A DNA stretch of 64,000 bases from Pseudovirgaria hyperparasitica. Taxonomy: Eukaryota. The notes beneath the pieces are model-generated. The model searched no databases, was not told the origin of the DNA, and was given only the letters and a program-made list of their open reading frames with translations. Location of the stretch: assembly GCA_010093815.1 (NCBI GenBank), contig ML996579.1, one strand, 5' to 3'. Shown here piece by piece: positions 1 to 34,000 of this stretch. The stretch's first letter is position 1, and each line of letters opens with the position of its first letter. Made by a program: the position numbers and the translations under genes.

Positions 1-1919
1 GAAAACCCTTAAAGACTTAATTAAATCTACCTAGAATTCCGATATATTAGTAAAGAAAGTTATAAGCATGAAAGGAAGCGCTATAGATCCGCCGTGGTTA
101 TTAAGGTAGGAACGACGATTAGACGCGATCTACTTCTAAGGCCAACTCTACGTGCCGGAAGGCGGCTTACAAATTAATGTTTTAAGGGAATAGCATGATT
201 ACGCGTTAGTAGGGTACTTTAGCGTTATAAGGATAGTTAATTTAATCCGAAGGACGTACGACTGGCCGGGTCTTTATAAATATATAAAAGACTACGTAAA
301 AACGTATAACGTTTACCAGCATACGAAAGTATATAGATACTTACTATATGGCGAATTAAGGCCATTACCTATGCTAAAGGAGGCATAGAAGGAATTATCG
401 ATAGATTTCATCACAGATCTACCCCTAAGTAAGTGTTCTAGGTATATTTATAATAGTTTACTCGTAGTTCTAGATAGATTTATAAAGATATTATACTACA
501 TCTCTATAAGGAAGACAATCTAAGCACCGGATCTTATAGATATACTACTCCGTGACGTAGTCCGGCTCTATGGTATACCGAACGGTATAGTTTCGGATAG
601 AGGTCCGTAGATAACGTCTAAATTTTAGAAGGATTTCTACTATATACTAGGAATTAAGCGGAAACTTAGTACTACGTTCCACCTATAAATAGATAGATAG
701 ATAGAGCGGTAGAATTAGATAGTCGAGGCGTATTTACGCGTATATTATAACTATAAGTAGGATAACTAGGTAAGGTTAGTCTGTGTCGCGGAATTCGCGT
801 ATAATAACAGCCGATATACGTTAACCCACGTAAGTCCGTTTAAAGTAAACTTCGGTCGGAACCATAATGCGTAGTTCTTAGGGACTTAGTTTAAAGTAGA
901 ACGATCTAATATTAAAGTAATAGAAATTACTATAGAACTATTCTAAACGTAAAGAAGCGTTATAAAGTTACTATAAGATACTACAAATTATAGTAAATCG
1001 CACTATAATAAGGGTAGAAAACCCATAATCTTTAATATTAGGGATAAAGTTTTACTAAATAGTAAGAATATTTATAGTATTAGGCTAAAGAAGAAGCTTA
1101 ACTATACGATAATAGGTCTATATAAGATTACTTATATAATTAATGACTAGGCGTACGAGTTATAACTCCCTCCTACGTTAAAGATATATAATATATTCTA
1201 TATTACGCTTCTCGAGCCATTTCATGCCTTATTATTACTAGATCGTTCCGAATAGATACTATATAAAGTAGTTACGTAAGAAGGTATAGATATCTACGAA
1301 GTTAAGTAGATACTTAGCTAGTAACGCGCCGAAGATGGCACGTGGCTATATAAAATTCGTTAGAAAGGATATAATCCTAACGAAGATACTTGGGAATCTA
1401 TAATAAACATTAGTAAAGTAGCGATGTTAGTATATGAGTAGCGATTAGTAAAGAAAGCCGCGGAATCATAGAGAATTATACCAAAGTACGGCGATTCGAC
1501 GTTTTTTAGTATAGTTTAGCACCGAGGACGGCCGCCTAAAAGGAAGAAGGTAAAAGAGATATAGATCTTTAAAACATTCTAAGGAATTAAGGAACTTCCT
1601 TAGAAAGTTCGAACTTAGAACTTTAAAAATTTAACTAAAAAAGAGACTTAGAAAAATAATTCACTAAGAGAAATAGACATCGAAAATCGGTACCGATCGG
1701 TATAGATCGGTATAGATTACTAAAGAGATTAAAGAAGTTATTATTAAAGAAAGATAAAATTAAGAAAGCTAAAAGAAAATATAAAGATCTATATAGATCT
1801 ATATAAACTCGCACTAATCTATCTAGAAGAAGCAAGATCGCTTTAAAATTAAAACCGAAAAACCAAAAACGCTAGATAAAAGAGACATGTTAGTACCGAT
1901 CGGTATAGATCTAAACCGA

Positions 1920-2901
1920 TTAAGTCGGAGTAGGAGTAGAAGTACTAATTACCGCGATAGTTATATCTAATTCCTTCTGCTAGTTCTTATTTAGTATAGT
2001 GTAGAGCTTTATAATATAAGTCTCTAGCCTTTCGTTCCGATACTATAAATTCTATATAGCGTGCCTTATAGCTATGAACTCCTCTATAGAAACCTATAGA
2101 GCGGCGGGACCCGGGACGGAGAGAGACGGACTAGCGCGGGTACGCTAAGAATTATATAAATTAGCGAAAAGATTCAATAATCGGTATAGAACCATATACC
2201 TTTAGTATAGAAACTTCTAGATTAGAGCTATCTTCCCTAAATTTATAGCTCTTTAGCACGCGCGAGGAAGGAACCTTAGCCTTTTTACTAGAACCTTTTC
2301 TAGGAATTCTAATATCGCCGGTGTATAGAAAGAAGTCCGAAGTAGTAGAGATTTTAGCACTATTATAGAGATTAATATATATTAGTAAGAATCTATAACG
2401 ATTTAAGAAAAACGATGTTACCTAGTAATCGCGGTAATAATAGCTATAGTAGATTCCGATAAATCCTTACGGATCTTATTAGAATCGTACTCCTAGGCGT
2501 AACCCTTACCTTAGATATATAGCTCGTAGAAAGCCTTCTCTAAGGCGTTACGATCGGTAGTACTACGCTCCTTATTAGTAGAGGTTACTAGAGGCCTAGT
2601 AGTAATCTATACTAATATAAGTAAATCTACGTAAAGTTCTTCGAACTTACTTAAATACCTATAAGTAATAACGCTTCTTAGTTATATAAGTACTATATAT
2701 TATAGATTTAGTACTACCGTAAGTAATATATAACGGAAAGCGATAACTATAATAATATATAGCTAGATTATTAGAGCCCGGCCTAGGTTGGGGTAGATTA
2801 ATAGCTTTTAACATGTCGGTGACGTATACGAGACAGGGATTATTCGAAGGCATCTATTTCCGCGCCGATTACTTTAGAGTATTGAGATTTCGGGAAACCA
2901 T
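1920..2901 (-). pseudogene. Antisense 4-exon accessory gene inside Gypsy A copy 1 (~270 aa; Cys-rich N-terminus, coiled-coil-like C-terminus), RIP-mutated
   Basis: ATG at 2901. GT-AG introns 2658-2607, 2421-2360 and 2199-2145 (the last two with ctaat branch sites) keep one frame to TAA at 1920-1922. Internal stops are TAG/TAA explicable as RIP'd CAG/CAA/TGG. Confidence 0.65.
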
Positions 2902-3385
2902 ATTAAGATTATTATTAATTTATACGGATTATTACGAATTATATTATTACTAGCTAAGGACGGCACGAAAATTAGTAAATTACGTAAATCATACTAAATT
3001 ATAGTAAATCTATATAAATCTATATCTATAAGGATCGGGTGATATACCTAATAATCTAAAAAACTCTATAAAGAGTTAAGAAGTTTTTTAAAGAAAGGAA
3101 TATTTCTAAGAAAAGATTTCAATATAGGTAGTACCCAGGCTTACCTAATTACATCACGTGATACGCTAGGCCTAATTAGATAATCTCACCTATATAAGAA
3201 GTTAAGATAGATAAAATCTAGTTTATTAGGAAAACGCTTATATAAATCTTAGATTAGTAAATATCGGTAAGTATCTAAGACGAAGCGTAGAGAACGACTA
3301 AGGTCTTACGAGACTTAGGATAGGGATATAGAGATAGGTAACGATCTAGGTCGCTAAGGGTAGCTTCCTAGAGGGAAGGGATAAT

Positions 3386-3613
3386 TATTAGAACTTAGTC
3401 TTAGGTAGAACCCGATCTACACGTACCTTAGCTAATAGGGATAGGAGGTAACGTGAAGGGCGGTAAACAGTCACGTGCTAGATAGATCGGCGTCCCTTTA
3501 TATATATACTCTCGGATTCCTACTAAAAGGGTTCGGTAGTAATTCGTTCTATGATAGAATACACCCTATTATTCTATCTAACTACACTACTATCCAATAA
3601 CCCTATTCTTACA
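3386..3613 (+). repeat. 3' LTR of Gypsy A copy 1 (228 bp)
   Basis: TA(<TG)...CA ends; matches LTRs at 19297-19524 and 33768-33995. Confidence 0.95.
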
Positions 3614-5148
3614 CTACCTTTAGTAAGATTTACCTTTAACTCCTTAAGAATCTTAAAGAATAGTAATAAACTATAACTCTTAACGAGGGAGTTCTACCTT
3701 ACGTTAAGCGATACTCCTTTTATCTTAATCCGGAGTTACTTTTTATATATAAAGTTAGTCTAGATAGCTATGAACGCTTATGTATTCTATACTAATTTAT
3801 ACGTGATTTTATAGACTAGGCCTATACTAAAGGCGGACATTAAGGTACTAACGATATATACATTCGTCTATAGTAAAATCTATTTATTCTAAAGCTTAGA
3901 GATTATATATAAGGCTATATAAACTAATACCCTACTTATAGTATCTCTAAAGCGTCGAATAGATAGCCGATTAGAGAATTAATACTAGTAGTTACGCCTC
4001 TAATACTATTCTATATAATCTTAATAGATTTTATCGTGGGATTACTAACGACCGTTAATAGCTATAATTAATACCTTACGGTCACCGATAAATTCACTAA
4101 GGGAGTTAAGCTTATACCCGGAAAAGACACTTAGACTACGTAGAAATAGGCCGTTGGTTTTTATAACTATATAGTCGCTAGTTAGACTATACCTAAAGTT
4201 ATTATCTCTAATTATAATTTCTATTTCCTTAGCTAATTCTAGCGAGTACTATTTAAGATTATAAGGGTTATTATAGTAGTTACGGCCGCTTATAACTCTA
4301 AAGTAAATAGATAGAGCGAACGGACTAATCTAACCGTTAAAATAATCCTCTAATACTTAATTATTAAAGAGAATAAGAATATTACTAAATAGAATAAATT
4401 ACTACTAGTAGTGGAATACACGTTATTAATAACGACAAGCTCTATAATAAATAAAACTCTATTCGAGCTCATGTACAGCGTGCGTCTAAGGGATCTAATA
4501 ATAGTAATAATACTATTCTAACTATTAAACGAAAATAAGCAATCCGTGGAGAATTTTACTCTATCTTACTAAGATATCTATAACTAAGCCGAAGAAGCTA
4601 TTACCGTCGCTTAGGCTAAGATAGTAATATTCTTCGATAATTAATATAGTAAGGTTAATATAGGCGACTAAGTCTAGCTAAAAGTTACTCGTAAGCCTAG
4701 CGCTAAAGGGTACTAATTACCCTCTATATCTTACCTTAATCTAGAGAAAGTTAGCCTATATAAAGTTCTTAAAAAGGTTACTTAAGTTACCTTCCGGCTT
4801 AAACTTTCTAAGTACGTTAAGATTTACCCCGTTATTTTAATTACTTATCTAGAGCCTTACACACCCGATACCCTTAATAGATTAATCCGTAACCTAGGTC
4901 CTATTAAGAAGATTAAGGGTAAGGCCGCCTATATTATTAATCGTATACTAGCTTAAGGATCTCGACGCCCTAAAGGAGAAACTAAAGTAGTATCTTACCT
5001 TAAAGTTATATAGAAAGGCTATAATAAACTAGACTAGGTATACGAATCGGATCTACTACGCGACGTGCTAGAAATAGTAGCTACCTTTAATACGCGTAAG
5101 CGTCTAAGGAAATCATATACTAGCTAGATAATCCTCTCTAAGATTTAA
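3614..5148 (+). pseudogene. Gypsy B pol C-terminus (integrase plus chromodomain)
   Basis: HHCC-like and DDE core motifs are readable after RIP correction. Confidence 0.85.
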
Positions 5149-5411
5149 TGTATTTCTATATTTTATAAGTTTACTTTATAATGTTTTTACTTTCTATTTA
5201 TATATAAATCTATCTAATTAATTACGTAATAGTTATACTAATTTAGGCGAGTATAGCGAATATTAGTCCCGTTAAGCTACCCTATTATCTTATTACCTTA
5301 GCTATAGTTACTCTAGCTCTATTAACTACCACTTCCTTTAGATGTCTTAGTATTAAACTTAACTTTTACTTCTTTCTATTCTTATTTACTCTAATATATA
5401 ATATCTCTAAT

Positions 5412-9629: not shown

Positions 9630-9671
9630 GTAATTTACATTTCGGGACGAAATTTAGCGTGGAAGGGCAGA

Positions 9672-9892
9672 TGCTATAGGTAGTTATATAAGGTTATATA
9701 AGTAGCTAAGTCACGTGGTCTAGTCACATAACGCTAGAAGCTTAGTATATATTACTTCTTCTTTCTATATTATTTATAGTTAGAGATGGGAGGAGGAAGA
9801 CGAATAACTGTATTAGCACCTAATTAAAGACTCATTAAGAGTATCTCCATCTCCTTTGCTCTATTATAGACCCTTCGGTAGATAATATAGCA
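9672..9892 (+). repeat. Putative 3' LTR of Gypsy B (221 bp)
   Basis: Begins TGCTATA and ends TATAGCA (7-bp terminal inverted repeat, TG...CA), directly after a purine tract. The partner LTR would lie outside the window. Confidence 0.75.
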
Positions 9893-13987: not shown

Positions 13988-14450
13988 ATCCGTATATCAA
14001 TTTTTCAGCGCGATTCTTGGCACGGGTCGCGCGCGTAACATAACTCCCTTTCTTATATTCTTAAACTTTATATCTTCTTTAATCCGATATCTCTGGAACT
14101 AGAATTCTAGAAAGTTCTTTAGTTGTATCTAAATATACTTTAACATAGACTCTTACGCTTTATATAAGAAAATAAGAAAATATAAGTAGATAGAAATATT
14201 ATTCTAAGAGAATATATATTAATAGATGTTATAGAGAAGAGAAGAAGAAAGATATCTTATTTAAGACTCTTTAGACTTTGAATTTATATAATAAGTATTC
14301 TTAAGATATAGATATAACTATATTAGACTTTTTAAGTATCTTCTATTTATAAAATATTAAAGAAAATATAAGTTTTAAATATACAAGGAAAAGTATATTT
14401 ACGCACGTGACGTGTACCAAGAGTGGCGTTTAAAAAGTTATCTAGATTGA
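13988..14450. mobile_element. MITE-like element (degenerate copy of the 36398-36904 family)
   Basis: Ends tttttcagcgcgattcttggcacgggtcgcgcgcgtaac and ttacgcacgtgacgtgtaccaagagtggcgtttaaaaag resemble the TIRs at 36398/36904; AT-rich core. Confidence 0.75.
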
Positions 14451-19296: not shown

Positions 19297-19524
19297 TGTT
19301 AGAACTTAGCCTTAGGTAGGACCTAACCTATATATACCTTAGCTAATAGGGTTAGGAGGTAACGTAAAGGGCGGTAAATAGTTACGTGCTAGATAGATCG
19401 GCGTCCCTTTATATATATACTCTTAGATTTCTACCGAAAGGGTTCGGTAGTAATTTATTCTATAATAGAATATACTCTATTATTCTATCTAACTATACTA
19501 CTATCTAATAACCCTATTCTTATA
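19297..19524 (+). repeat. 5' LTR of Gypsy A copy 2
   Basis: TG start, preceded by TSD actat. Confidence 0.95.
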
Positions 19525-20752
19525 TTCGAATTACTCCCTATATAGTACTATAGTTAAGATAGTCTAACTAGAACCAAGAAGGTCGACACGATCTACTATA
19601 GGGATAAGTAATACTATATTAAATAATAGAGATTCTCTATAATTAGTATTAATCCTAGCCGTTTCTAACTAAGAAGTAGAAATATTAGACTAAATCACGG
19701 AGCTTTTAGACGAAGAAATAGTAGATACACTAAGTAACTTCTAATAATATAAAGCCGGATAATAAGTCGTGGCGGAGCCATATAAGGTATTATAATAAAC
19801 TATCGCTAAACTTTAGGAATACGTCGCGAATTAGACTCGAGAGATTTAAACCCTTAAAGAATAGATAGAACGCGCGAAACTCCTCGTAAAGAGACGAGAA
19901 CTTAAGAAGTCTCTTAAAGAACTATGCCGAACGATAGTAGGTAGATAACTTCCTATACTAATTTAGGCGGAATTAGTTTACCTACTATTAGAGTTACGAT
20001 AATCTACTATATACCTAGCCGCTTCGTTACCGATTTACTCTACTTCTTCCCTAGATATACCGAAACCTAAAGACCTAACTATATTTATAGGGAAGAACTA
20101 AAAGGAGTAGAAAGACTAGAAGAAAGACTATAAAAAGTACTTCCTCGATAACCCTCTACTCTTTTCTACTAAAGTATAACGCATTTCGTTTAGAGAACGA
20201 TACCTAGGATTATAATTCCACGATTAATAGGATAGATAGAAGGAAGTATAGCTACTATCTACGATAACCTAGAAATATTTAGCTATATTTATACTAAATA
20301 CCCTCGGAACGGATAGAGAACGTGAAAGAAAGGCACTATCTAAGTTAAGAAGCGTAGTATAACGACCGAACTAGACACCTACTTAACTACTATAATACCT
20401 CTAAAACCTATAGAATAATATCCCTATACTATAGAAAAATATTCGTATATTCTAGTTTCGCGAAGTACTACTTCTATTAATCCGCGAAAGACTAGGAATA
20501 GTATTATTAAGTTTTAACTATCTATATAAATTAGAGGAGAAAGCTAATAAATACTACCGTATCCTTAAGGAACGCGGCTCTCTAGGTAAAACCGACGAAC
20601 CCTATACGGGTTAGAAACGAGGTCGATTAAATACGTTCGATTAAGAGTAACCTTACCGCGATTAGCGCTAGAAGAGCGTAAATTAGGGTAGAAACGCGTT
20701 AAGAGAATACTAATATAATTAAGGCGGTACTTCTTAACACGGAAAAGGATAA

Positions 20753-22167
20753 TAATAATAATATTATATAACTAGGTAGAGTAGTACTCTATAGGCCTAT
20801 GCCTCCTCTAGTCTAAGCTACTATATAAGAAGAAACCTAAGAGGGGAAAACTTCCTTATGTCGATAATTACATCTCGTTAAACCTTTATTTCTTCTTAAG
20901 TATATAGCTATAGGGTACACCTATTAGCCTATAGCCTATATTACCGTTATTTTACCCTTAGGTAGCACGTGTAGGTGCGGAGGTTATTAGTTAAGGGGTT
21001 CTTCCGGCATATACCGGGTTTCCTCCGATATATACCGGGTTTCTTCTAGTATATATTTCCGGGTCTACTAGAATTAGAGGAGTAGTAGATATATAATTAT
21101 CTACCGGGCGATATTCTTAGGGTACTTATTAAGCTATCGTACGATATTAGAGGTTCTTATTATATAGATAAGCTTCTACCTTTACGTGTGAAGATCGGGG
21201 TATATTACGAGATAGTAGCGTATTATATCTCTCTAGCCGTACGCCTTATACCATAGAGACATGTTAGGGACGCCTCTCTTATAGAGGTAGTATAGAAGTC
21301 CTATAGCGCCCGTTCGGGCTTAGAGGAGTATAGATGCCTAGGCCTTTATAAGCCCTTTATATATCTATTTACTCGGCTCCTTCTATGGTCCTCGGATCTA
21401 CTCTAGGTACCTATTCTACTAGGAGGCCTACTAGGCCCGGAGTGTCTCTTTCTACTTATCTTAGATCTATAACCGTATACTTCGTCCGAGCTCTTAAAGG
21501 CTCTATTAGTCTAGAAGAGTATCTAGGTTATTCTTAATCTCTTATACTACTTAGTTTAAGTCTATTTCTATCGGGCACTTATACCGTAGTCGAGTCCGGC
21601 CTATATATAAGAGTACTTAGTAGTATACGCTAACTCGCGCGCGTAGCGCGGCGAAGATATATTCTATATTTTCTATATATTTCTATACTTATTATTTAGT
21701 AAAGTATACTACCCTCTATGTCTAGTAGAAGTCCTATATACTTATTATATTTATCTCGCGTCGTAGTAGCGCTATAGTAGTAGCTTTATATATACTAGAG
21801 ATAAGACGGAGTATACGGTTTTATATGGATTCGAGCTTCGTTCGCCTAGCCTATATAAGGGCTATATACTAGTACTCGTGTCCGTATATAAAGGCTAGTC
21901 GTGCTATAGAGATATATAGTTAGCGTGCCTTATCCTAGGCGGTTCCCTATATAGAGGCCGTAATCCGGCGTATAGCGGCTTCTACCTAGAGGGCCCTAGA
22001 AACGGCGTATACTACCTATGGTCCCTATTTAAGCTTATTATCGATCATGACACCGAGTACGCGTATACTTTGTATCGGCGGTTCGTTAAAGGCGTCTATT
22101 CTAGGGCGTCGCTCGCCTTCCCTAGTAGCCCATTTCCCACGGCGGTTAATGAAGTACATGAGTTGGT
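20753..22167 (-). mobile_element. 5'-truncated copy of the Tad1-like LINE inserted in Gypsy A gag
   Basis: Reverse complement matches ~30830-32285 including the (ATT)n tail. TSD acacggaaaaggat(aa) at 20737-20752 and 22168-22183. Confidence 0.93.
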
Positions 22168-25100
22168 ACACGGAAAAGGATAAGATATAGACTTAAATAT
22201 AATACCTATTATAAAATAGTAGGATTATAGTATACTTCGTTACTATAAGTATAGAGAAATAGAATATATTTCATCTAACTATAAGAATCCGAAAAAAGAA
22301 TAGGCTAGTATACGAGACCTAACCGCGTTCTTAGCTAAATTATATATACTTAGGAGAAGCCGTAGCGCCTTCCGGTAAGTAAAGACCTAATATTACTAAA
22401 AGTATTATTACCTATAGTAAATAGTAATAAAACTATATAGGCCCTCGTAGATACTAGTATAGAAGATAACTATATTTCATTAATTCTTATAAAGGAGTAT
22501 AGATTATCGTACGATCTCGGTAAAGTTAGCTAAACTATTATAGTTAATAGATATAAAGTTAGAACTTTAGGTAAAGCTATAATAAATTACGAAGTTTATA
22601 ACTCGAAGATAATAAAATAGTAGATGTCTAATAAATTTATCGTAGCTAATATTAGCTAATAGAATATGATTCTAGGGATGCCTTAGCTTAGACGTCTAAA
22701 CCCTATCCTTAATTTTTAGAAGGAGATATTAACGTTCCGATAATACCGTGGTAAATTATACTAGTAAGTCATAACTATTAGTAAGGAGGCATGGAACCTT
22801 ACCGTGCGGACCCGATTATCGCTAATCTATCTTACGTCCTTATCGATTATTAATAAAGATAAGGATAATAGTAATAATCGGGGTAAAGACACGCTATCTA
22901 ACGTATATTCGTAGTATACGGATGTATTTTCGGTAGGAGATATATTACTTCTCCCTAATCACGGGCTATATAAGCTAAAGATCGAGCTTAAAGAGGGAGT
23001 AGACGTCTCTTATAGTCTACTTTACCTACTTTTAAGACTAGAACTCGAAGTTCTTCGTAAATATATTAAAGAATACCTTAAAAGAGGCTAGATATATTAT
23101 AGTATATTATTGGCTAGCGTACCTATTCTCTTCGTAAAGAAGAAAGACGGAAGTTTACGTCTATATATTAACTATTAGATACTAAATATAGTAACTAAGA
23201 AGAATCATCACCTATTACCGCTAGTTAATAAATCTTTAGACTAATTAATAAAGGTAAAGTACTTTACGAAGCTAGATTTATAAGATATATATTACCGGCT
23301 TCGAATTCATCGCGGAGGAAAGTAGAAAACCGCATTTCGGACTAGATATAGTTATTTTAAGTATACTATTATACTATTCGGGCTAATAAATGCGCTAGGA
23401 GCGTTTTAAGGATATATTAATACTATACTCGTAGGATTACTTAACGTGATTTACGTAGTTTATCTTAATAATATACTAATTTACTCCGATAGTATATAGA
23501 ATTATAAAGAACACGTGAAATTAGTGCTAAATCGTCTAAGGTAGTATAAACTCTACGTAAAATTATCTAAATGCGAGTTTTACTAATAAGAAGTTAGGTT
23601 TCTCGGCTTTATTATAATATATAGCGGCCTAAAAATAGAGCTAGAGCGTATAAAGACTATTATGGAATAGCTAGAACCTACTACTATACGTTAAATTAGA
23701 ATATTTATAGGTTTCGTGAACTATTATTATAAATTCATTATAGGCTTCTTACGAATTATAGCGCCGCTTAATAAACTTATAGAGAATAGTAGTAAAATCT
23801 CTATAGGTAGGCGAGTATAGTATAAAGCTAAGTTAGTCGAGATATAGTTAATACCGGAAGCGTAAGATACGTTCTAATCGTTAAAGAATTACTTTATAAC
23901 TACGCCGATTCTTAGGTATTTTAATTCTAAGAAGTATATTCGGGTTAAAACTAACGCGTTAGAATTCGTAATTACTAGAATTATTAGTTAACTATATAAA
24001 GATATAAAAGATAAGGTATAATAGCACCCGGTCGCTTTCTTTTCCTATAAAATGGCGGATATAGAGACGCGTTATAATATATACGACTAGGAACTACTTA
24101 TAATCGTTAAGAGTTTTAAGTAATAGTAATATTATTTAGAAGGCTCTATATATTAGATCGAATTATTATCGGATTACGTAAATCTATATTACTTTATATT
24201 AACTAAGGTCCTTAATCGCTAATAAGTACGTTAGGCTAAGTAGATATTAATATTTAACTTTAAAATCTTATATAAAGCTAGAAGAGAGAATAAAGCTAAT
24301 CCTCTATTGCGGTATAAAGATTATAAGAAATCGTTATAGAATAATATAGATAGTCGGTATAAGTTAGACTATACTATACTTTAGATACTATAAGACTAGT
24401 TATCTAATAGAATACTAGAAGCTAGGGTACTTTCGGCGATTCTCCGCGGGAATTAGAGCGGGTATTAAGTAATCTAAATAAATATCTAAGAAACTAAGAA
24501 AACCCTCGAAGACTTAATTAAATCTACCTAGAATTCTAATATATTAGTAAAGAAAGTTATAAGTATAAAAGGAAGCGCTATAGATCCGCCGTAGTTATTA
24601 AGGTAGGAACGATAATTAGATATAATCTACTTCTAAGGCCGACTCTACGTGCCGGAAGACGGCTTACGAATTAATATTTTAAGGGAATAGCACGATTACG
24701 CGTTAGTAGGGTACTTTAGTATTATAAGGACGGTTAATTTAATCTAAAGAACGTACGACTAGCTGGGTCTTTATAAATATATAAAAGACTATATAAAAAC
24801 GTGTAACGTTTACTAGTATACGAAAGTATATAGATACTTACTATATAGTAAATTAAGGCTATTACCTATACTAAAGGAGGTATAGAAGGAATTATCGATG
24901 GATTTTATTATAGATCTACCTCTAAGTAAGTATTCTAGGTATATTTATAATAGTTTACTTATAGTTCTAGATAGATTTACGAAGATATTATACTATATCC
25001 CTATAAGAAAGATAATCTAAGTACCGGATCTTATAGATATACTACTCCGTGACGTAGTCTAGCTCTATAGTATACTAAATAGTATAGTTTCGGATAGAGG

Positions 25101-26416
25101 TCCGTAGATAACGTCTAAACTTTAGAAGGATTTCTACTATATACTAGGAATTAAGCGGAAACTTAGTACTACGTTCTATCTATAAATAGATAGGTAGACG
25201 GAGCGGTAGAATTAGATAGTCGAGGCGTATTTACGTGTATATTATAACTATAAGTAGAATAACTAGATAAGGTTAGTCTATATCGCGGAATTCGCGTATA
25301 ATAATAGCCGATATATATTAACCTACGTAAGTCTATTCGAAGTAAACTTCGGTTAGAACTATAATATATAGTTCTTAGGGACTTAGTTTAAAGTAGAACG
25401 ACCTAACGTTAAAGTAATAGAAATTACTATAGAACTATTCTAAACGTAAAGAAGCGTTATAAAGTTACTATAAGATACTACGAATTATAGTAAATCATAC
25501 TATAATAAGGGTAGAAAACCTATAATCTTTAATATTAGGGATAAAGTTTTACTAAATAGTAAGAATATTTATAGTATTAGGCTAAAGAAGAAGCTTAACT
25601 ATATAATAATAGGTCTATATAAGATTACTCGTGTAATTAATAACTAGGTATACGAGTTATAACTCCCTCCTACGTTAAAGATATATAATATATTCTATAT
25701 TACGCTTCTCGAGCTATTTTATACCTTATTATTACCGGATTATTCTAAATAGATACTATATAAAGTAGTTACGTAAGAAGGTATAGATATCTATAAAGTT
25801 AAGTAGATACTTAGCTAGTAACGCGCCGAAGATAGTATATAGCTATATAAAATTTATTAGAAAGAATATAATCCTAACAAAGATACTTAGGAACCTATAA
25901 TAAATATTAGTAAAGTAGCGATATTAGTATATAAGTAGCGATTAGTAAAGGAAGCCGCGGAATCGTAGAGAATTATACTAAAGTACGGCGATTTAACGTT
26001 TTTTAGTATAGTTTAGCGCTAAGAACGGCCGTCTAAAAGAAAGAAGGTAAAAGAGATATAGATCTTTAAAATATTCTAAGGAATTAAGGAACTTCCTTAG
26101 AAAGTTCGAACTTAGAACTTTAAAAATTTAACTAAAAAAGAGACTTAGAAAAATAATTTACTAAGAGAAATAGACATTAAAAATCGGTGCCGATCGGTAT
26201 AGATTAGTATAGATTACTAAAGAGATTAAAGAAGTTATTATTAAAGAAAGATAAAATTAAGAAAGCTAAAAGAAAATATAAAGATCTATATAGATCTATA
26301 TAAACTTATACTAATCTATCTAGAAGAAGTAAGATCGCTTTAAAATTAAAACTAAAAAACTAAAAACGCTAGATAAAAGAGATATATTAGTACTAATTAG
26401 TATAGATCTAAACTAA

Positions 26417-29400
26417 AAAAAGAACTTCTTATACTCTAACGGACTAAACTGGTTAATTCGGGGTAAAATAGCGATTTACATACATCAAACGATAGAGTAC
26501 ACCGAGTATAATAACCTCCGACATACGTGCGTACGTATAGCGTATAATACGCAACGATACCGACGTATAGAGATACTATATATATATACTTAAAGACTCT
26601 TCGATAACACGAGTATAGACTATATCTAATAAACGCTAATACGCCGACCCCCTTTTATTAGTTAAGGGCTGCCCTTAACTAATAACTATAGCGGCCTTAG
26701 GTATCGTAATACCCTAGCATACGCCGGATATACCCCTACTAGTATAGTAGAAACGGCTATATAGCGATATTAATATGGATAGCTAGATACCTATCTAAAA
26801 TATAGGAACTAACTAAGGGTGCGAAGTACTATAGATAACCTAGACCAAGGGGACCCTGAGAGGGGAGACCCTCCTAGATAAAATTAAATACTAGATAACA
26901 CGTATAGAGAGGGACGCTAAGGAGGGAAAGAAGACCCTTCTTTATATATTCCGGGACCTTATCCGGAACCTAAGAGGAATCACAGAGGAAGAAAGAAAGT
27001 CGCCACGAGAGGAACCTAGTAGTAGACTCGACCGAATAGAAGCCAGCCTACGGAGAATCTAGAAAGAGCTATCCTAAGGTAAGCGCCCTAATACGTAGGC
27101 TTAGATTATAGTAACACCCGGAGCCACCGTACTAAGGACTACTAGGACTATAGATAGAGTATATAGTATACGTATCGTAATCTAGAATAAGGATACGCTA
27201 GCGTAGGTCTAACGGACATCCCTAAAGGAAATTATAAATAAGATTAATAAATAGAAAGGAATATAGTTAAGTGTTATAGCTACTAAAGTTACGCTAGGTG
27301 GGGTAGTACTTACTACTATAATAAATACTACGTAGTAAAACATCTTACGAGATCCGAACGCGATAGATAGTATCTTCCCCGGCGCGTCTATTAGAGTAGC
27401 TATATACCCGATTATAGTACACGTAGTACCCGTGCAGGGATAGGCTATTAGAGCGGAGGATATTACATGTATAGAATAATCTAACACGCGAAAATACCCA
27501 GGGATTAAGATCGTAAAAGCGTGGTAGAAGAACCCATAGGCGATTAAGACGACGGCGAAAAAACACTCTACTATAATTATAGAGCTCCGAGACCCCGCCC
27601 TCGTATAATATATTATATAGAAGGGATTTCTAATAGAAGGAGAGCTCCTTATAGCCGAGCTATAGGATAGGGTATAGGTAATAATATAGTACTTTGACTA
27701 TTAAGGGTATAGATATACTATATAAAGGTACTTATAGAAGACTAAGTGCGGATAATACCGTGGGGACCACGCTACCTAGGAGTACCCTTATTGTTAGGCA
27801 CGTGGCCTGCCAGTTGATTCTACATGTATGTAGTAGTCGTATATAAGTAGTGTGCTCCACCCTTAAAGTAGTAGCTTTAAGATTCGGTCCTTTTAGTGTA
27901 GTTAGTTAGTACGTGGAGCCCGCCTCCTTATATAATCTTAAAGCTACTACGGGGTCACGGGTTTAACTCTCGGTCTAGTTAACCGTTATTGAATTTTACA
28001 CGATTCCGTTTAGCTTACTACGTTACGTGTACTTTATATACGTAACGGATAACATGGTAGTAACGTTACTACGGTAAGTTAGCGTGTCTAGTACTAGAGG
28101 CGGTATTGCGAGTATTAGTTATGTGTGTATATCGTTTATACTAGGCCTGTTACGGCTAGTTCAGCTTATCTTTCGTAAGGTAGCATGCCCATGACGCGTA
28201 AGGACACGCGCCTTCGAAAAGGGGAGATATTGTTAGGCACGTGGCCTGCTAGTTAATTCTACATGTATGTAGCAGTCGTATATAAGTAGTGTGCTCCACC
28301 CTTGAAGTAGTAGCTTTAAGATTCGGTCCTTTTGGTGTAGTTGGTTGGTACGTGGAGCCTACCTTCTTATACTTATAAACCACGAGGAGACGGACTAAGA
28401 AATAGAGATATAGCATAGTATTTAAACTACGATGGGAAATACCTATCATAGTCGTTAACGTATATAAAACGTAAATAGATTATAGAATACATTCGTACGA
28501 TAAAAGCGAGAGACGCGAGATAGTTATAGAATATAATACCTACCACGAGCCCTTCCTTTATAACACCCCTAACCTCCCCTCCGGAAGGTAGTTAGGCGGG
28601 ATAGTAGACTATCCTAAAGATAATAGAACGACTAAAAGGTATAGTTAAAGCCGCTACCGCGCGAGGATAGTCGCGCCTCCGAGGAATAAGTATATAGATA
28701 TATATACTCTCTAGTACCTAATAAGGGACTAGAATATACTCTAAATTATATAGGTAAATATATAATATAAAAGAGAGAACTAGGCGACGCTCCTCGAAGA
28801 GACCGGGGCTATAATACTCGCTATCTAGGAACCCTATAAATACTACTAGACGAGTAAACCAACCACACACCCCGGATACCATACTATATACCCTCTAGGA
28901 CTAGAAAGACGAGTCCTCTTCCACATTTATAGGTTAATACTACTCTTATTATGGTTATATACTAAGCGCGATAACCTTAGGATAACACTACACCTATAAA
29001 TAGATATAGGCCCCCTATATATATATAATATATATAACTAATAACGTGTACTTATACTAGATAAGATGCTCGAGGGTACTACGGAACTAGGGTAATACAT
29101 CCTCCTAGGAGACTTTAACCTCTACTACTAATGGTAGAGAGGCCTAGCCGTGGTTAGGGAAGAACTTAGAGTAAGGGAACTACGTACCCGCTACTACGAC
29201 TTCCTATATCTACTCACACCTATAGAATAAGTTATATAGAAAAAATATAAATAGGACGAAGACGGGTCTATACTTAACCTTACCTTCGCCACGGAGTATA
29301 TTAGTTACTAGATCTAATACTACCGCCTAGGCTAGGTATAGACGGATTCCGACCACGAATACATGGAAACCGTAATAAACGTATATACCCCGAATGAATA

Positions 29401-32285
29401 ACGGGGATAATAGATATAGAAGGATACCGACTAGGAAAAGTACCTAAAGGACCTGGAATCGGCGATCCTAGATCCCTCTATAGTCGATATATCTAACGAC
29501 CTAGCCATAGACCAGGCCGTATAGATACTCCTATAAATATACTAGAATGCGAGAAATAAACACATACTATACCGAATATACCGGCCCCTAGAAGTAAAGG
29601 GGATTCCTTAAGTACGGGAAAGTAGATAAGACGCCCGAAGGCTATATAGACGCGTATACTATATAAGAATACCCGAGTCGTAGGAAGAATAGAAGGAAGC
29701 GATATAATAACGCGATAAAGTCCTTCGTAATAAAAGGCGTAAATAGTAGTATATAATTACTAGTTAATAGACACGACACGTAATAGGGCTATAGCGCATA
29801 GCGAAATAGGCTAAGGGCGTAGATACTCCGACACCCCCGCCACTTATGCCTCCCCTTATATATTAGGGGAGAATATACTCCACGGGCCTTAAGAAAACTA
29901 AGGCCCTACGGGAGGCTATTTTCCCTCTCCCGGAACTAGTAGACCTATTAGACGTTCACGGCGCTAAATATCTATACGTAGTAGATATCCCCGAAGAAGT
30001 TACGGAGGAGGATATACTTAATATTATTAAGATACTCCTAAATGATAAAGCACCCGGACTAGATGGAATTCTAAATTAATACCTAAAAAGTACTATAAAA
30101 GCGACCCTACTACTTATTACTCGTATATTCTAAGCATGCGTCACGTAGGGGTACTACCCCTAGAGCTTCCGAGTCGTCTATACTATTATACTCCCGAAGC
30201 TAGGAAAGAGCCCTAACTCTCTAAAGGGATAGAGACTAATCGCCCTTCTCTTCTACCTAGGTAAGATACTAGAGGCTACGATAGCGAAGAAGATAAGCAC
30301 CGCGGTATAGGAATATAATCTCCTCCCTCCGAACCAGAAGGCAAAGGTAGATAGCTCCCTAATAATAGCTATCTAATATATTATTAAAGTCGTCTAGGCC
30401 GCATAGAAATAGGGACGGGTAGTATCGCTCCTCTCCCTCGATATGGCCGGAGCGTTTAATAAGGTAAACCATATAAGACTTATTTATAACCTCCGGATAA
30501 GACGGATACTAGAATGGATTATACGCTTTATATAGTTATTCCTTATAGGAAGAATAACTTAGATATATATCTCTAGGTACTAGAGCGAATATAAAGAGAC
30601 GGTATACGGCATCCTATAAGGGAGCACCATCTCTCTAATCCTATTCCTCTTCTTTACGGTAGACCTTCTTTAAGGAATAAAGTATATAGAGGTAGTCGGA
30701 TACGCTAATAACATATACCTTCTAGCTATTAATAATAATACTAACCGAACGTGTAGACAACTAGAATAGAACCATAAGAGGTGCCTCTAGTAGGTAAAAC
30801 GCCACGGAGTAAAGTTCGCCCCGGAGAAATACTAGCTCATGCACTTCATTAATCGTTAAGGGAAATAGGTAACTAGGGAAGGCGAACGACGCCCCCGAAT
30901 CAACGTATTTAACGAACCACTAGTATAAAGTATACGCGCGCTCGGAGTCATACTAGATAGTAAGCTTAAATGGGGACTATAAGTGGTATATACCGTCTCT
31001 AGGGCCCTCTAGGTAGAAGCCGCTATATAATAGATTATAGTCTCTATATAGGGAACCGCCCGGGATAAGGCACGCTAGCTATATATATCTATAGCGCGAC
31101 CCGCCTTTACGTATAGACACGAGTACTAATATACAGCCCTTATATAGACTAGGCGAATAAAGCTCGAATCTATATAGAACCGTATACTCCGTCTTATATT
31201 AGGCGTATATAAAGCTACTAACACGGTGCTACTACGACGCGAGATAGACGTTATAAGTATATATAACTTCTACTAGATATAGAGGGTGGTATACTTTACT
31301 AAATAATAAGTATAGGAACGTATAGGAAACGTAGAATATACTTTCGCCGCGCTACGTATACGAATTAGTATATATTACCGCGTACTCCTATATATAGGCC
31401 GGAATTAAATACGGTATAGGTGCTTAATAGAAGCCGACTCTAGCTAAGTAGTATAAGAAGTCTAAGATAACCCGGACGCTCTCCTAGACTAGTAGAGCCT
31501 TTAAGAACTCGTGAAAAATATACGGTCGTAGACTTAAGATAAGTAGAAAGAGGCACTCCGTGCCTACTAGACCTCCTAGTAGAATAGGTACCTAGAGTGG
31601 ATTCGAGGGCTATAGAAGGAACTGAGTAAATAGATATATAAAGGGCTAACGAAAGCCTAAGTATCTATACTCATCTAAGCCCGAACGGGCGCCATAGAAC
31701 TCCTATACTATATCTATAAGAGAGGCGTTCCTAATATCTCCCTATAGTATAAGGCGTACGGCTAGAGAGGTATAATACGCCACTATCTAGCTATATACCC
31801 TAACCTCTATATATAACGGTAATAGCTTATCCACGTTACGAAGACTTTAGATATCGTATAATAGCTTAATAAGTACCCTAAGGACGTCTCCCGATAGATG
31901 CTTATATATCTACTACTCCTCTAGTACTAGTAGACCCGGAAATATATACTAGAAGAGACCCGGTATACGCTAGTAGTAACCCGATATATACCGGAAGAAC
32001 CCCGGGAGAACCCCGATTATTAGTTAAGGGCAGCCCTTAACTAATAACCTCCGCACCTATACGTGCTGCCTAAGGGTAAAATAACGGTAATATAGGCTAT
32101 AGGCTAATAGGCGTACCCTAGGGCTATATACTTAAGACGAAACAGAGGTTTAATAAGATATAGTTATAGATATAAGGAAGTTTTTCCCTATAGGGTTTCT
32201 TCTTATATAGTAGCTTAGACTAGAGAAGGCATAGGCCTATAGAGTACTACTCTACCTAGTTATATAATATTATTATTATTATTAT
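26417..32285 (+). mobile_element. Full-length Tad1-like LINE (ORF1 with CCHC knuckles; ORF2 APE endonuclease plus RT), RIP-inactivated
   Basis: TSD tatagatctaaactaa at 26401-26416 and 32286-32301. ORF1 knuckles ~27690-27790; GDFNLHH ~29108, SDH ~29348, APGPDGI ~30050, GIPQGS ~30608, GYADD ~30698; (ATT)n 3' tail. Confidence 0.93.
27792..28371 (+). mobile_element. TRIM (non-autonomous miniature LTR retrotransposon, 580 bp) inserted in LINE ORF1
   Basis: 141-bp LTRs 27792-27932 and 28231-28371 with 5-bp TSD cttat (27787-27791, 28372-28376). PPT aaaaggggaga before LTR2; 298-bp non-coding interior. Confidence 0.95.
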
Positions 32286-32301
32286 TATAGATCTAAACTA
32301 A

Positions 32302-33283
32302 TTAAGTCGGAGTAGAAGTAGAAGTACTAATTACCGCGATAGTTATATCTAATTCCTTCCGCTAGTTCTTATTTAGCATAGTATAGAGCTTTATAATATA
32401 AGTCTCTAGCCTTTCGTTCCGACGCTATAAATTCTATATAGCGCGCCTTATAGCTATAAACTCCTCTATAGAAATCTATAGAGTAGCGGGACCTAGGATA
32501 GAGAGGGACGGACTAGCGTAGACACGCTAAGAATTATATAAATTAGCGAAAAGATTTAACGATTAGTATAGAACTATATACCTTTAGTATAGAAACTTCT
32601 AGATTAGAGCTATCTTCCCTAAATTTACGGCTCTTTAGCACGCGTAGGAAAGGAACCTTAGTCTTTTTACTAGAATCTTTTCTAGGAATTTTAATATTAC
32701 TAGTATATAGAAAGAAGTCCGAAGTAGTAGAGATTTTAGTACTATTATAGAGATTAATATATATTAGTAAGAATCTATAACGATTTAAGAAAAACGATAT
32801 TACCTAGTAATCACGGTAATAATAACTATAGTAGATTCTAATAAATCCTTACGGATCTTATTAGAATCGTACTTCTAGGCGTAACCCTTACCTTAGATAT
32901 ATAGCTCGTAGAAAGCCTTCTCTAAGGCGTTACGATCGGTAGTACTATACTCCTTATTAGTAGAGGTTACTAGAGGCCTAGTAGTAATCTATACTAATAT
33001 AAGTAAATCTATATAAAGTTCTTTAAACTTACTTAAATACCTATAAGTAATAACGCTTCTTAGTTATATAAGTACTATATATTATAGATTTAGTACCACC
33101 ATAAGTAATATACGATAGAAAGTAATAACTATAATAATATATAGCTAGATTATTAGAGCCCGGCCTAGGTCGGGATAGATTAATAGCTTTTAATATATTA
33201 GTAACGTATACGAGATAGGGATTATTTAAAGGCGTCTATTTCTATACTAATTACTTTAGAGTATCGAGATTTTAGGAAACTAT
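32302..33283 (-). pseudogene. Antisense accessory gene, copy in Gypsy A copy 2
   Basis: Colinear (offset 30382) with 1920-2901; start codon RIP'd. Confidence 0.6.
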
Positions 33284-33767
33284 ATTATAATTATTATTAA
33301 TTTATATGGATTATTACGAATTATATTATTACTAGCTAAGGATAGTACGAAAATTAGTAAATTACGTAAATTATACTAAATTATAGTAAATCTATATAAA
33401 TCTATATCTATAAGGATCGGGTAATATACCTAATAATCTAAAAAACTCTATAAAGAGTTAAGAAGTTTTTTAAAGAAAGGAATATTTCTAAGAAAAGATT
33501 TTAATATAGGTAGTACCCGGGCTTATCTAATTATATTACGTAATACGCTAGGCCTAATTAGGTAATCTTACCTATATAAGAAGTTAAGATAGATAAAATC
33601 CAGTTTATTAGGAAAACGCTTATATAAATCTTAGATTAGTAAATATTAGTAAGTATCTAAGACGAAGCGTAGAGAATAACTAAGGTCTTATAAGACTTAG
33701 GATAGGGATATAGAGATAGGTAACGATCTAGGTCGCTAAGGGTAGCTTCCTAGAGGGAAGGGATAAT

Positions 33768-33995
33768 TATTAGGACTTAGCCTTAGGTAGGACCCGACCT
33801 ATATATACCTTAGCTAATAGAGTTAGGAGGTGATGTAAAGGGCGGTAAATAGTTATGTACTAGATAGATCGGCGTCTCTTTATATATATACTCTTAGATT
33901 TCTACCGAAAGGGTTCGGTAGTAATTCGTTCTATAATAGAATACACCCTATTATTCTATCTAACTATACTACTATCTAATAACCCTATTCTTATA
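33768..33995 (+). repeat. 3' LTR of Gypsy A copy 2
   Basis: Matches the 5' LTR; followed by TSD actat. Confidence 0.95.
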
Positions 33996-34000
33996 ACTAT

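What the first reader, a model, noticed from the sequence alone, without database searches (positions are those of the whole stretch)
1920..2901. Spliced antisense accessory gene inside Gypsy family A, present in both copies
Seen: on the minus strand between pol and the 3' LTR, an ATG and three short GT-AG introns (52, 62, 55 nt) give a phase-consistent ~270-aa frame. After RIP correction it has Cys clusters (CLxC...CxxCxxKKRxC) and a coiled-coil-like C-terminus. The same region is at 32302-33283. Established: introns antisense to the genomic RNA survive reverse transcription. Inference: an element-borne regulatory or DNA-binding factor, perhaps expressed from a promoter in or near the 3' LTR. 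Both Gypsy families here therefore carry unrelated extra genes.
Basis: partly seen in the sequence, partly recalled or inferred. Interest (0 to 1): 0.7.

Follow-up and report, generated by a model that had tools for sequence, protein, structure and literature searches.

The report
Dead antisense spliced gene in fungal retrotransposon
Two mutation-wrecked copies of a fungal Gypsy-type jumping gene keep the remains of an extra, backwards-facing, intron-containing gene for a small cysteine-rich protein, a layout already known from the grey-mould fungus and from plants.

Summary
The features described are in the sequence. Window 1-3611 and 19297-33993 are two RIP-mutated copies of a Ty3/Gypsy chromovirus with pol on the + strand. 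A 1.8 kb spacer separates pol from the 3' LTR. It has 9 internal TAA/TAG stops in copy A and 11 in copy B.

On its own this is only modestly beyond chance (about 0.03-0.05 in three tests). No sequence search finds a relative.

The main support is comparative. Intact related chromoviruses from metagenomes carry an antisense, spliced gene at the same place. L001 encodes 266 aa. L003 encodes 286 aa and is identical to an annotated Stemphylium lycopersici protein. In five intact relatives, exon 1 ends two codons after the last Cys of a C-x2-C-x5-7-C motif. The window matches this if its Tyr codons are read as mutated Cys.

Verdict: most likely (about 0.7) a dead relic of an element-borne antisense accessory gene. 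Function, promoter and DNA binding are untested. It is a new member of a known kind (brtn of Boty; plant antisense aORFs). The scan has noted this kind before on other DNA, including in this genome.

The parts
2..1560 (+). 3' part of pol of Gypsy copy A (integrase zinc-binding domain, integrase core, SH3, chromodomain). The 5' end is cut by the window start.
   Evidence: Pfam on + frame 2, with stops read as X: Integrase_H2C2 5.1e-10, SH3_Tf2-1 6e-10, Chromo 6.9e-5, rve 8.1e-5. The other five frames give no family at E<=1. tblastn of P0002 covers 35-1555.
1561..3383 (.). Spacer of about 1.8 kb between the end of pol and the 3' LTR; it holds the antisense gene relic.
   Evidence: The intact relative L001 has a 1.9 kb spacer at the same place.
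2659..2901 (-). Exon 1 relic, copy A (81 codons): ATG, NNPC..Y, then Y..Y......YL, stop, GT.
   Evidence: The exon 1 peptide of L001 maps best of six frames to 2859-2698 in this frame.
2607..2658 (-). Intron 1 (52 nt, phase 0), GTATTT...TATAG.
   Evidence: The donor lies two codons after the last Cys-equivalent, as in 5 of 5 intact relatives.
2422..2606 (-). Exon 2 relic (185 nt).
   Evidence: It has 2 stops in the model frame against 4 and 10 in the other two. The exon 2 peptide of L001 does NOT map here.
2360..2421 (-). Intron 2 (62 nt, phase 2), GTAACA...TACTAAT...ATAG.
   Evidence: Same phase as intron 2 of L001 and L003; it falls on the aligned column in the RIP-aware alignment to L001.
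2200..2359 (-). Exon 3 relic (160 nt, no stop), with a basic KK.K patch.
   Evidence: It is part of the longest open stretch of copy A (86 codons, 2421-2164). The exon 3 peptide of L001 maps here only as the third of six hits.
2145..2199 (-). Intron 3 (55 nt, phase 0), GTATAT...GCTAAT...TTAG.
   Evidence: Same phase as intron 3 of L001 and L003.
1920..2144 (-). Exon 4 relic (225 nt) ending in TAA at 1922-1920.
   Evidence: The exon 4 peptide of L001 maps best of six frames to 2180-2055 in this frame.
3370..3381 (+). Polypurine tract AGAGGGAAGGGA just before the 3' LTR.
   Evidence: Read directly from the sequence.
3384..3611 (+). 3' LTR of copy A (about 228 nt, ends ...TTACA).
   Evidence: It matches 19295-19522 and 33766-33993.
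19297..33993 (+). Copy B, full length, flanked by the 5-bp target duplication ACTAT (19292-19296 and 33994-33998). It is interrupted by non-LTR element pieces at 20749-22168 and 26414-32285.
   Evidence: RT-like motifs were seen in the translation printed with the error.
32302..33283 (-). Antisense gene relic, copy B. Exons 33283-33041, 32988-32804, 32741-32582 and 32526-32302; the start reads ATA; 11 internal stops.

Best explanation
The stretch is the RIP-killed relic of an accessory gene that belonged to this Ty3/Gypsy chromovirus family. The gene lay between pol and the 3' LTR on the strand opposite gag-pol. It had four exons and three short introns and encoded about 270 residues.

Shown here:
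- Place, strand and splice-site dinucleotides, in both copies.
- The same architecture in intact relatives.

Inferred:
- The ancestral protein had an N-terminal cluster of about six Cys (now mostly Tyr, through TGY to TAY), a basic patch that looks like a nuclear-localisation signal, and a helical C-terminus.
- It was made from an antisense transcript starting in the 480 nt between its ATG and the 3' LTR, or in the LTR itself.
- Its introns persisted because they are antisense in the genomic RNA and so cannot be spliced out before reverse transcription.
- It acted in the nucleus as a zinc-binding, probably nucleic-acid-binding, oligomeric factor that regulated the element.

Neither copy in this window can function now.
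For: (1) Position inside the element.

(2) The frame has fewer stops than chance: 5 of 150 shuffles and 1 of 37 natural windows do as well.

(3) Codon usage without stops: the model frames give the best sum of the six frames in both copies. 43 and 53 of 1000 shuffled controls reach it. The same test scores the intact antisense genes at +22.7 (L001) and +37.1 (L003).

(4) Intact relatives:
- L001 has pol at 1653-5681, with LTRs starting at 20 and 7590. Its antisense gene has 4 exons, introns of 44/47/51 nt, 266 aa, and intron phases 0,2,0.
- L003 has a 4-exon antisense gene, phases 0,2,0, 286 aa. It is letter for letter the NCBI protein P0133 of Stemphylium lycopersici.
- The window model has exons of 243/185/160/225 nt, phases 0,2,0, 270 aa.

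(5) In 5 of 5 intact genes (L001, L003, L010, L012, L017), exon 1 ends two codons after the last Cys of C-x2-C-x5-7-C, in phase 0. The window reads Y-x2-Y-x6-Y-L-stop|GT. That pattern occurs 6 times in 63,994 RIP'd codon positions, and 2 of the 6 are these two copies.

(6) NNP[CY]..[CY], as in L001's NNPCVKC, occurs only in these two copies among the 63,994 positions. P0141 shows the same motif RIP-mutated to NNPY.

(8) RIP-aware alignment to L001: score 43.9 against decoys at 31.2 +/- 4.9, with 20 of 850 decoys reaching it. It is colinear, and introns 1 and 2 fall on aligned columns.

(9) Of the five loci whose integrase best matches the window's, L017, L003 and L001 carry such a gene.
Against: No direct sequence homology could be shown:
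- HMMER of the frame-0 translation against 1.84 billion representatives found only a spurious repeat protein.
- tblastx of the spacer against the 80 loci gave a best E of 0.69.
- Plain blastp against the L001 protein gave E 0.33.
- With permissive RIP-aware scoring, 48 of 536 natural decoys score as high.
- With the softer scoring, 81 of 1000 shuffled L001 targets reach the observed score. L003, L012 and L017 give nothing (67, 143 and 240 of 850 decoys).
- An HMM of the Cys domain gives no positive hit in the window, even with Tyr read as Cys.

Other points against:
- The model-frame codon scores are negative.
- The intact genes themselves barely align to each other; only L010-L012 are significant. 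'Same family' therefore rests on architecture.
- L007, one of the best integrase matches, shows no such gene in my reading.
- I chose L001 after looking at many loci, so the matches carry a multiple-testing cost.
- CpA and TpG are about 90% converted, so the ancestral residues cannot be recovered from two copies.
Confidence: 0.72

Rival explanations
1. Chance pattern. The spacer is a non-coding 3' region of the element. In DNA this rich in TpA and this poor in information, a reader free to choose an ATG and three GT-AG pieces can always build a frame with few stops. Tyr-rich translations will mimic Cys motifs.
For: - The path with fewest stops uses other introns.
- 5 of 150 shuffles do as well.
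- 48 of 536 decoys reach the permissive similarity score.
- The exon-1-end pattern occurs 4 times elsewhere in the RIP'd DNA.
- No database relative was found.
Against: Several partly independent signals point the same way:
- Stops.
- Codon usage without stops.
- The NNPC motif is unique to this place.
- Intron phases 0,2,0 and exon sizes match L001 and L003.
- Two of four L001 exons map to the right exon and frame with no gene model given.
- Intact relatives have a gene exactly there.
Confidence: 0.17
2. A real former gene, but not the one modelled. Either the spacer holds the relic of an antisense gene with different exon borders, or a fragment of a host gene or another element was captured by the ancestor of both copies and is unrelated to the Cys-cluster genes of L001 and L003.
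For:
- Open stretches run through intron 2 (2421-2164).
- The class is so divergent that relatedness cannot be tested by sequence.
Against: - No Pfam family on any frame of the spacer, and no similarity to other elements in the 80 loci.
- Both copies share the stretch, and run X1 covers all 30 bins of it with thousands of short contigs, so it belongs to the family and is not a one-off capture.
- The exon-1 end and the intron phases fit the class.
Confidence: 0.11

Closest known systems
brtn, the additional antisense gene of Boty-like (BcGypsy1) Ty3/Gypsy elements of Botrytis cinerea (Zhao et al. 2011, Virology 417:248). The paper is not held. I saw it only as a reference, and in passages of PMC8365987, PMC7264820 and PMC4227169.
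   Same: An extra gene on the strand opposite gag-pol in a fungal chromodomain-bearing Gypsy element. The review lists Boty among the elements with antisense ORFs between pol and the 3' LTR.
   Different: The brtn sequence and exon structure were not available, so relatedness is untested. The window copies are RIP-dead. The Cys-cluster motif and the conserved exon-1 end seen here are not mentioned in the passages I read.
Antisense aORFs between pol and the 3' LTR of plant Ty3/Gypsy elements: maize Grande gene23, rice RIRE2, Silene Retand, Phaseolus PvRetro13 (review PMC7264820; passages read).
   Same: Same place and orientation. They are present in most copies of a family. The review reports no clear database similarity, nuclear localisation for some, and a promoter upstream of gene23.
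   Different: They are in plants and no sequence relation is known. Introns and a Cys cluster are not described in the passages read.
Antisense spliced genes of intact related chromoviruses found here: L001 (266 aa); L003, identical to P0133 (hypothetical protein DDE82_009063, Stemphylium lycopersici, 286 aa); L010, L012 and L017.
   Same: - They lie in the pol-to-3'-LTR spacer on the antisense strand.
- They have 2-4 exons with introns of 44-79 nt.
- Exon 1 ends two codons after the last Cys of C-x2-C-x5-7-C, in phase 0.
- L001 and L003 share phases 0,2,0 and about 270-290 aa with the window model.
- The C-terminus is helical (AlphaFold model of P0133, residues 236-285).
   Different: - They are intact, whereas the window copies have 9-11 stops.
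- Sequence similarity to the window is not significant, apart from a weak signal with L001.
- They carry no Pfam family.
- I found no published description of them.
Fungal Zn(2)-Cys(6) binuclear cluster DNA-binding domain (GAL4 type, Pfam PF00172).
   Same: A six-Cys pattern with two C-x2-C pairs, followed by a helical or coiled-coil part. Three other loci (L030, L044, L062) have the canonical spacing C-x2-C-x6-C-x8-10-C-x2-C-x6-C on the antisense strand behind pol.
   Different: Pfam does not report Zn_clus for the window or for L001, L003, L010, L012 or L017. L062 reaches 17 bits and L030 13 bits, against a cut-off of 21. The spacing in the first half is far longer in L001 and in the window.
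HBZ of HTLV-1, a spliced antisense gene transcribed from the 3' LTR. HBZ is recalled from my own knowledge; the review passage mentions only the HTLV antisense promoter in the 3' LTR.
   Same: An analogy of layout: a retroelement-borne antisense, spliced gene for a nuclear factor.
   Different: It is a retrovirus of people, with an unrelated bZIP protein. No homology is implied.

Membership tests
Antisense additional ORF between pol and 3' LTR of Ty3/Gypsy elements (brtn / plant aORF-3R class) | Lies inside the element, between the end of pol and the polypurine tract / 3' LTR | tested here: met
   pol ends near 1560, the polypurine tract is at 3370-3381 and the LTR at 3384-3611. Copy B has the 5-bp target duplication ACTAT.
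Antisense additional ORF between pol and 3' LTR of Ty3/Gypsy elements (brtn / plant aORF-3R class) | Reads on the strand opposite gag-pol | tested here: met
   pol is on +. The frame with few stops and the codon signal are on -.
Antisense additional ORF between pol and 3' LTR of Ty3/Gypsy elements (brtn / plant aORF-3R class) | Present in all or most copies of the family, not in one copy only | tested here: met
   It is in 2 of 2 copies in the window. Run X1 covers all 30 bins of 1200-3650, with 9,890 short contigs laid.
Antisense additional ORF between pol and 3' LTR of Ty3/Gypsy elements (brtn / plant aORF-3R class) | An open reading frame (coding capacity) | tested here: not met
   There are 9 internal stops in copy A and 11 in copy B. 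Only a former frame can be argued.
Antisense additional ORF between pol and 3' LTR of Ty3/Gypsy elements (brtn / plant aORF-3R class) | Antisense transcription | not testable with these tools
   No run on record as RNA holds the stretch. Contigs cannot show strand.
Antisense additional ORF between pol and 3' LTR of Ty3/Gypsy elements (brtn / plant aORF-3R class) | Sequence relatedness to brtn itself | not tested
   The brtn sequence and the paper are not held.
Cys-cluster antisense genes of fungal chromoviruses (L001, L003=P0133, L010, L012, L017) | Exon 1 ends two codons after the last Cys of C-x2-C-x5-7-C, with a phase-0 GT donor | tested here: inconclusive
   5 of 5 intact genes show it. 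The window reads Y-x2-Y-x6-Y-L-stop|GT in both copies, so it is met only if Tyr stands for mutated Cys. The background is 4 other hits in 63,994 positions.
Cys-cluster antisense genes of fungal chromoviruses (L001, L003=P0133, L010, L012, L017) | Several exons with short introns; phases 0,2,0 in the four-exon members | tested here: met
   The window model has 4 exons, introns of 52/62/55 nt and phases 0,2,0. L001 has introns of 44/47/51 nt and L003 of 79/72/58 nt, both with phases 0,2,0.
Cys-cluster antisense genes of fungal chromoviruses (L001, L003=P0133, L010, L012, L017) | Detectable protein similarity to a member | tested here: inconclusive
   Against L001, 20 of 850 decoys but 81 of 1000 shuffles reach the score; the others give nothing. 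2 of 4 L001 exons map to the right exon and frame. blastp gives E 0.33. The HMM gives no hit.
Zn(2)-Cys(6) binuclear cluster (Pfam PF00172 Zn_clus) | Pfam match at the gathering score; spacing C-x2-C-x6-C-x5-12-C-x2-C-x6-8-C (the spacing is recalled from my own knowledge) | tested here: not met
   No family for the window frames at E<=1 or for exon 1 of either copy at E<=10. The first half of the cluster is far longer than the canonical spacing.
DUF3716 (a Cys-rich fungal domain named in earlier notes of this scan) | Pfam match | tested here: not met
   No Pfam family at E<=10 for exon 1 of the window copies or of L001, nor for L003, L010 and L012; L017 gave only an unrelated DUF7044 at E 1.4.

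The most novel reading that the evidence does not exclude
The relic belongs to an old, widespread and so far undescribed lineage of chromovirus-borne antisense genes. Their proteins have diverged beyond alignment. Their gene skeleton has nevertheless been kept through countless rounds of reverse transcription: a zinc-type Cys cluster, a phase-0 intron two codons after the last Cys, then phase-2 and phase-0 introns, a basic patch and a helical tail. The protein would be an element-encoded nuclear zinc-cluster factor that controls the element's own transcription or its silencing. Genome annotations, such as P0133 in Stemphylium, would be listing these as host genes.
Probability: 0.35. Interest if true: 0.65.

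Novelty: new member of a known kind. Interest (0 to 1): 0.36.

Why it matters
Antisense extra genes of LTR retrotransposons are known but poorly understood. The review read here says their functions are unknown and asks for attention to antisense and spliced transcripts (PMC7264820, passages).

This window adds only a dead example. The comparison made to judge it is more useful:
- Intact relatives carry spliced antisense genes with a shared Cys-cluster and intron signature.
- One of these genes is annotated as an ordinary fungal protein.

If that signature marks a real gene family, there is a concrete set of intact genes (L001, and L003, identical to P0133) on which to test what such genes do.

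Tried and rejected
- Whole genome: none is held for this window.
- HMMER of the frame-0 translation (exons 1 and 3 in frame) found only P0001, a repetitive protein matching out-of-frame junk. Rejected as spurious.
- Sequencing runs: no RNA holder is listed. X4 and X5 are of unknown kind and cover only the LTR and one 148-nt piece of exon 4. The one joint seen (1762 to 2275, one contig) does not fit the introns. Only 40 of 169 variant places were printed, and none lies on a model stop.
- tblastx of the spacer against the 80 loci: nothing.
- Viral-contig scans with P0002 and P0122: nothing.
- Word search with the L001 exon 1 ORF found only itself.
- Atlas search: best score 0.77, no lead.
- The 'max' RIP-aware score looked good against shuffles (16 of 2000). 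It failed against natural decoys (48 of 536), so I dropped it.
- The HMM of the Cys domain gave no hit.
- The codon tests used a control homologous to the training set. I discarded them and redid the test cleanly.
- AlphaFold of P0133 alone: mean pLDDT 48.6 and the Cys domain was not modelled, so I ran no fold search. PDB sequence search: nothing below E 0.5.
- The alignment A4 was too poor to use for folding.
- Region 3612-10012, minus frames: no Pfam family. I therefore did not follow the motif hit at +6254.
- L007: no antisense gene was seen.
Full report
WHAT IS THERE

The left 36 kb of the window is AT-rich (GC about 0.29-0.40). TpA/ApT is 1.5-1.6 and (CpA+TpG)/(ApC+GpT) is about 0.2-0.3. 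In the GC-rich right part these indices are 0.73 and 1.24. This is the signature of repeat-induced point mutation (RIP).

A self-comparison gives these matches:
- 1-1916 matches 24498-26413 (91.9%).
- 1904-3611 matches 32286-33993 (92.3%).
- 3384-3611 matches 19295-19522 and 33766-33993. These are the LTRs.
- 20749-22168 matches 32282-30830, inverted (81.9%).

Pfam, with stops read as X, puts Integrase_H2C2, rve, SH3_Tf2-1 and Chromo on + frame 2 of 1-3600. The other five frames give nothing at E<=1.

Copy A is therefore the 3' part of a chromovirus, cut by the window start. Copy B is complete (19297-33993) and flanked by the 5-bp duplication ACTAT. It is interrupted by a non-LTR element at 26414-32285 and by an inverted fragment of the same kind at 20749-22168.

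A polypurine tract (3370-3381) abuts the 3' LTR. The 1.8 kb between the end of pol (about 1560) and the LTR is therefore internal to the element.

THE OBSERVATION

On the minus strand the ATG at 2901 and the three GT-AG pieces are as described: 2658-2607, 2421-2360 and 2199-2145 (52, 62 and 55 nt). The splice dinucleotides are kept in both copies.

Splicing gives 813 nt. Copy A has 9 internal stops, copy B has 11, and the two-copy deRIP has 9. All are TAA or TAG. All 82 differences between the copies in this stretch are transitions.

The start is ATG only in copy A. Copy B and most of the depth in run X1 read ATA, which is the RIP direction.

The 'Cys clusters' are Tyr codons in both copies, so that part is inference.

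IS IT MORE THAN CHANCE?

Only modestly, taken by itself.
- A search for the path with fewest stops (up to 3 GT-AG introns of 45-75 nt) finds 7 stops. Dinucleotide shuffles give 12.5 +/- 2.6. 5 of 150 shuffles and 1 of 37 natural ATG windows from other RIP'd DNA do as well.
The minimal paths cut out the Cys-like motif.
- A codon-usage model was trained on 671 pol codons of copy B that are not homologous to copy A's held part. Stop codons were excluded.
  - It ranks the true frame first in 4 of 6 pol chunks of copy A (sum +6.4).
  - For the candidate, the model frames give the best sum of six frames in both copies (-10.4 and -5.2).
  - 43 and 53 of 1000 shuffled-exon controls, with the frame of fewest stops chosen, reach those values.
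- An earlier version of this test was discarded because its control overlapped the training set.

DIRECT HOMOLOGY SEARCHES FAILED

- HMMER of the frame-0 translation against 1.84 billion representatives gave one spurious repeat protein.
- Pfam gave nothing for exon 1 even at E<=10.
- No RNA run holds the stretch, and no spliced joint was seen.

This failure is expected. CpA and TpG make up 0.8% and 0.7% of dinucleotides here, against about 7% in normal DNA. TpA makes up 18.3% against 4.7%. About three in four TpA are therefore mutated, and the two copies share most of those changes.

RELATIVES

The pol fragment finds 223 long chromovirus polyproteins at E<=1e-10; the best is P0002 at 1.2e-102. 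An alignment of ten of them retrieved 80 metagenome loci. tblastx of the spacer against these loci found nothing.

Reading the loci themselves was informative.

L001 is an intact element. Its pol is at 1653-5681 and its LTRs start at 20 and 7590, leaving a 1.9 kb spacer. The minus strand of the spacer carries a gene of four exons (6844-6551, 6506-6343, 6295-6154, 6102-5905). Its introns are 44, 47 and 51 nt with GT-AG ends and CTRAY branch sites. It encodes 266 aa, with intron phases 0,2,0.

L003 gives a four-exon model of 286 aa with phases 0,2,0. A profile search later returned P0133, an NCBI protein of Stemphylium lycopersici, which is identical to that model over all 286 residues. An independent annotation thus agrees with the splicing.

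L010, L012 and L017 carry further antisense spliced genes at the same place.

With a pol-trained codon model, the L001 and L003 genes score +22.7 and +37.1 in the model frames. Every other frame is negative. These are real coding genes.

In all five genes, exon 1 ends exactly two codons after the last Cys of a C-x2-C-x5-7-C motif, in phase 0.

Three more loci (L030, L044, L062) have a single antisense ORF with the spacing C-x2-C-x6-C-x8-10-C-x2-C-x6-C followed by a coiled-coil-like stretch. Zn_clus is reported only below Pfam's cut-off, at 17 and 13 bits against 21.

HOW THE WINDOW COMPARES

It has four exons (243/185/160/225 nt), phases 0,2,0 and 270 codons. L001 has 294/164/142/201 nt and L003 has 267/197/211/186 nt.

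- Exon 1 end. The window's exon 1 ends Y-x2-Y-x6-Y-L-stop|GT. This is the family signature if Tyr is read as RIP-mutated Cys (TGY to TAY) and TAG as a former CAG. The pattern occurs 6 times in 63,994 RIP'd codon positions, and 2 of the 6 are these copies.
- NNPC motif. Upstream, NNPC-x2-Y matches L001's NNPC-x2-C. That motif occurs nowhere else in the RIP'd DNA. P0141, a mutated relative of L001, shows NNPY at the same spot.
- Mapping without a gene model. Each L001 exon peptide was mapped onto the unspliced spacer in six frames with a RIP-aware score. Exon 3 is third. Exon 2 lands elsewhere.
- Soft RIP-aware alignment. The spliced model against L001 is colinear and puts introns 1 and 2 on aligned columns. 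Its score is weak: 20 of 850 decoys and 81 of 1000 shuffles reach it. L003, L012 and L017 give nothing.
- Other scores. A more permissive score fails against decoys (48 of 536), and an HMM of the Cys domain finds nothing.
- Divergence within the class. The intact genes hardly align to each other. Only L010-L012 are significant, L001-L017 is marginal, and L001-L003 show nothing. Lack of sequence similarity says little here, and 'family' means shared architecture.
- Closest integrases. Of the five loci whose integrase best matches the window's, L017, L003 and L001 carry the gene. L004 has too little downstream DNA. L007 shows none in my reading.

MECHANISM

Shown: an accessory gene of this architecture exists in intact relatives, and the window has matching remains in both copies.

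Inferred:
- The protein had a zinc-type Cys cluster.
- It had a basic patch like a nuclear-localisation signal: SSKKAK in the window, GKKRR in L001, AKRAK in L003.
- It had a helical C-terminus. The AlphaFold model of P0133 is confident only for helices 236-285.
- It was expressed from an antisense promoter between its ATG and the 3' LTR, or in the LTR.
- It acted in the nucleus on the element's own expression.
- The introns can persist because they are antisense in the genomic RNA.

None of the functional steps was tested.

COMPARISON WITH WHAT IS KNOWN, AND NOVELTY

Antisense extra ORFs between pol and the 3' LTR are described for plant elements and for Boty of Botrytis (brtn). I saw these in review passages, and saw the original paper only as a reference.

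Two full-text searches found no description of a Cys-cluster antisense gene in fungal Gypsy elements:
- antisense / LTR retrotransposon / fungal / additional ORF / zinc cluster.
- retrotransposon / antisense / intron / Zn2Cys6 / Gypsy.

Earlier notes of this scan report the same kind of relic on other DNA, including two in this genome. I used them as leads and tested what I could.

VERDICT

The finding is a dead, new member of a known kind.

Noticed in passing
window 26414-32285 and 20749-22168: A non-LTR (LINE-like) element of 5.9 kb sits in copy B just beyond the stop of the antisense gene. The two homology blocks overlap by 13 nt (copy A 1904-1916), which may be its target duplication. An inverted 1.4 kb piece of its 3' part (82% alike) interrupts the same copy further upstream. 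RT-like motifs were visible in the translation printed with the error.
   Followed up: partly
window 1-3611 versus 24498-26413 / 32286-33993: The mutation spectrum has two layers. The remaining differences between the copies lie mostly at CpG (163 of 286 strand-normalised C-to-T differences; CpA 84, CpC 34, CpT 5). They often appear as CG versus TA doublets.
   Followed up: partly
L003:3679-4748 (minus strand); protein P0133: An NCBI 'hypothetical protein' of Stemphylium lycopersici (286 aa) is identical to the antisense gene of a chromovirus locus. It is therefore a retrotransposon-borne gene filed as a host gene.
   Followed up: partly
L030:2839-3411, L044:4586-5134, L062:5255-5908 (all minus strand): Other chromovirus loci carry a single antisense ORF whose 3' end overlaps the end of pol. 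It has the canonical six-Cys spacing of Zn2Cys6 domains followed by a coiled-coil-like stretch. Zn_clus is reported only below cut-off, in L062 and L030.
   Followed up: partly
window 3393-3519 (3' LTR), run X4: In a run of unknown kind from the same species label, a 2,840-nt contig of very high depth (about 2,600) ends in a 127-nt stretch like the LTR (18 differences). Its loose ends are GC-rich. An LTR fragment may be part of an abundant transcript or of another repeat.
   Followed up: no
window 1638-1871, minus strand: The second-longest open stretch of copy A (78 codons) is low-complexity (Phe/Leu/Asn-rich). It is the mirror of the Lys/Arg-rich tail region after the chromodomain on the + strand, so it is probably not a gene.
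   Followed up: partly
window 15738-16080; and 13988-14440 versus 36398-36895: There is a tandem pair of 169-nt units (89% alike). There is also a 69%-alike repeat pair at the two borders of the AT-rich block.
   Followed up: no
window about 6215-6254, + strand: One of the four background hits of the exon-1-end pattern (Y..Y......YL. followed by GTAAGT) lies in another RIP'd stretch. The three minus frames of 3612-10012 have no Pfam family, so the nature and orientation of that stretch remain unknown.
   Followed up: partly
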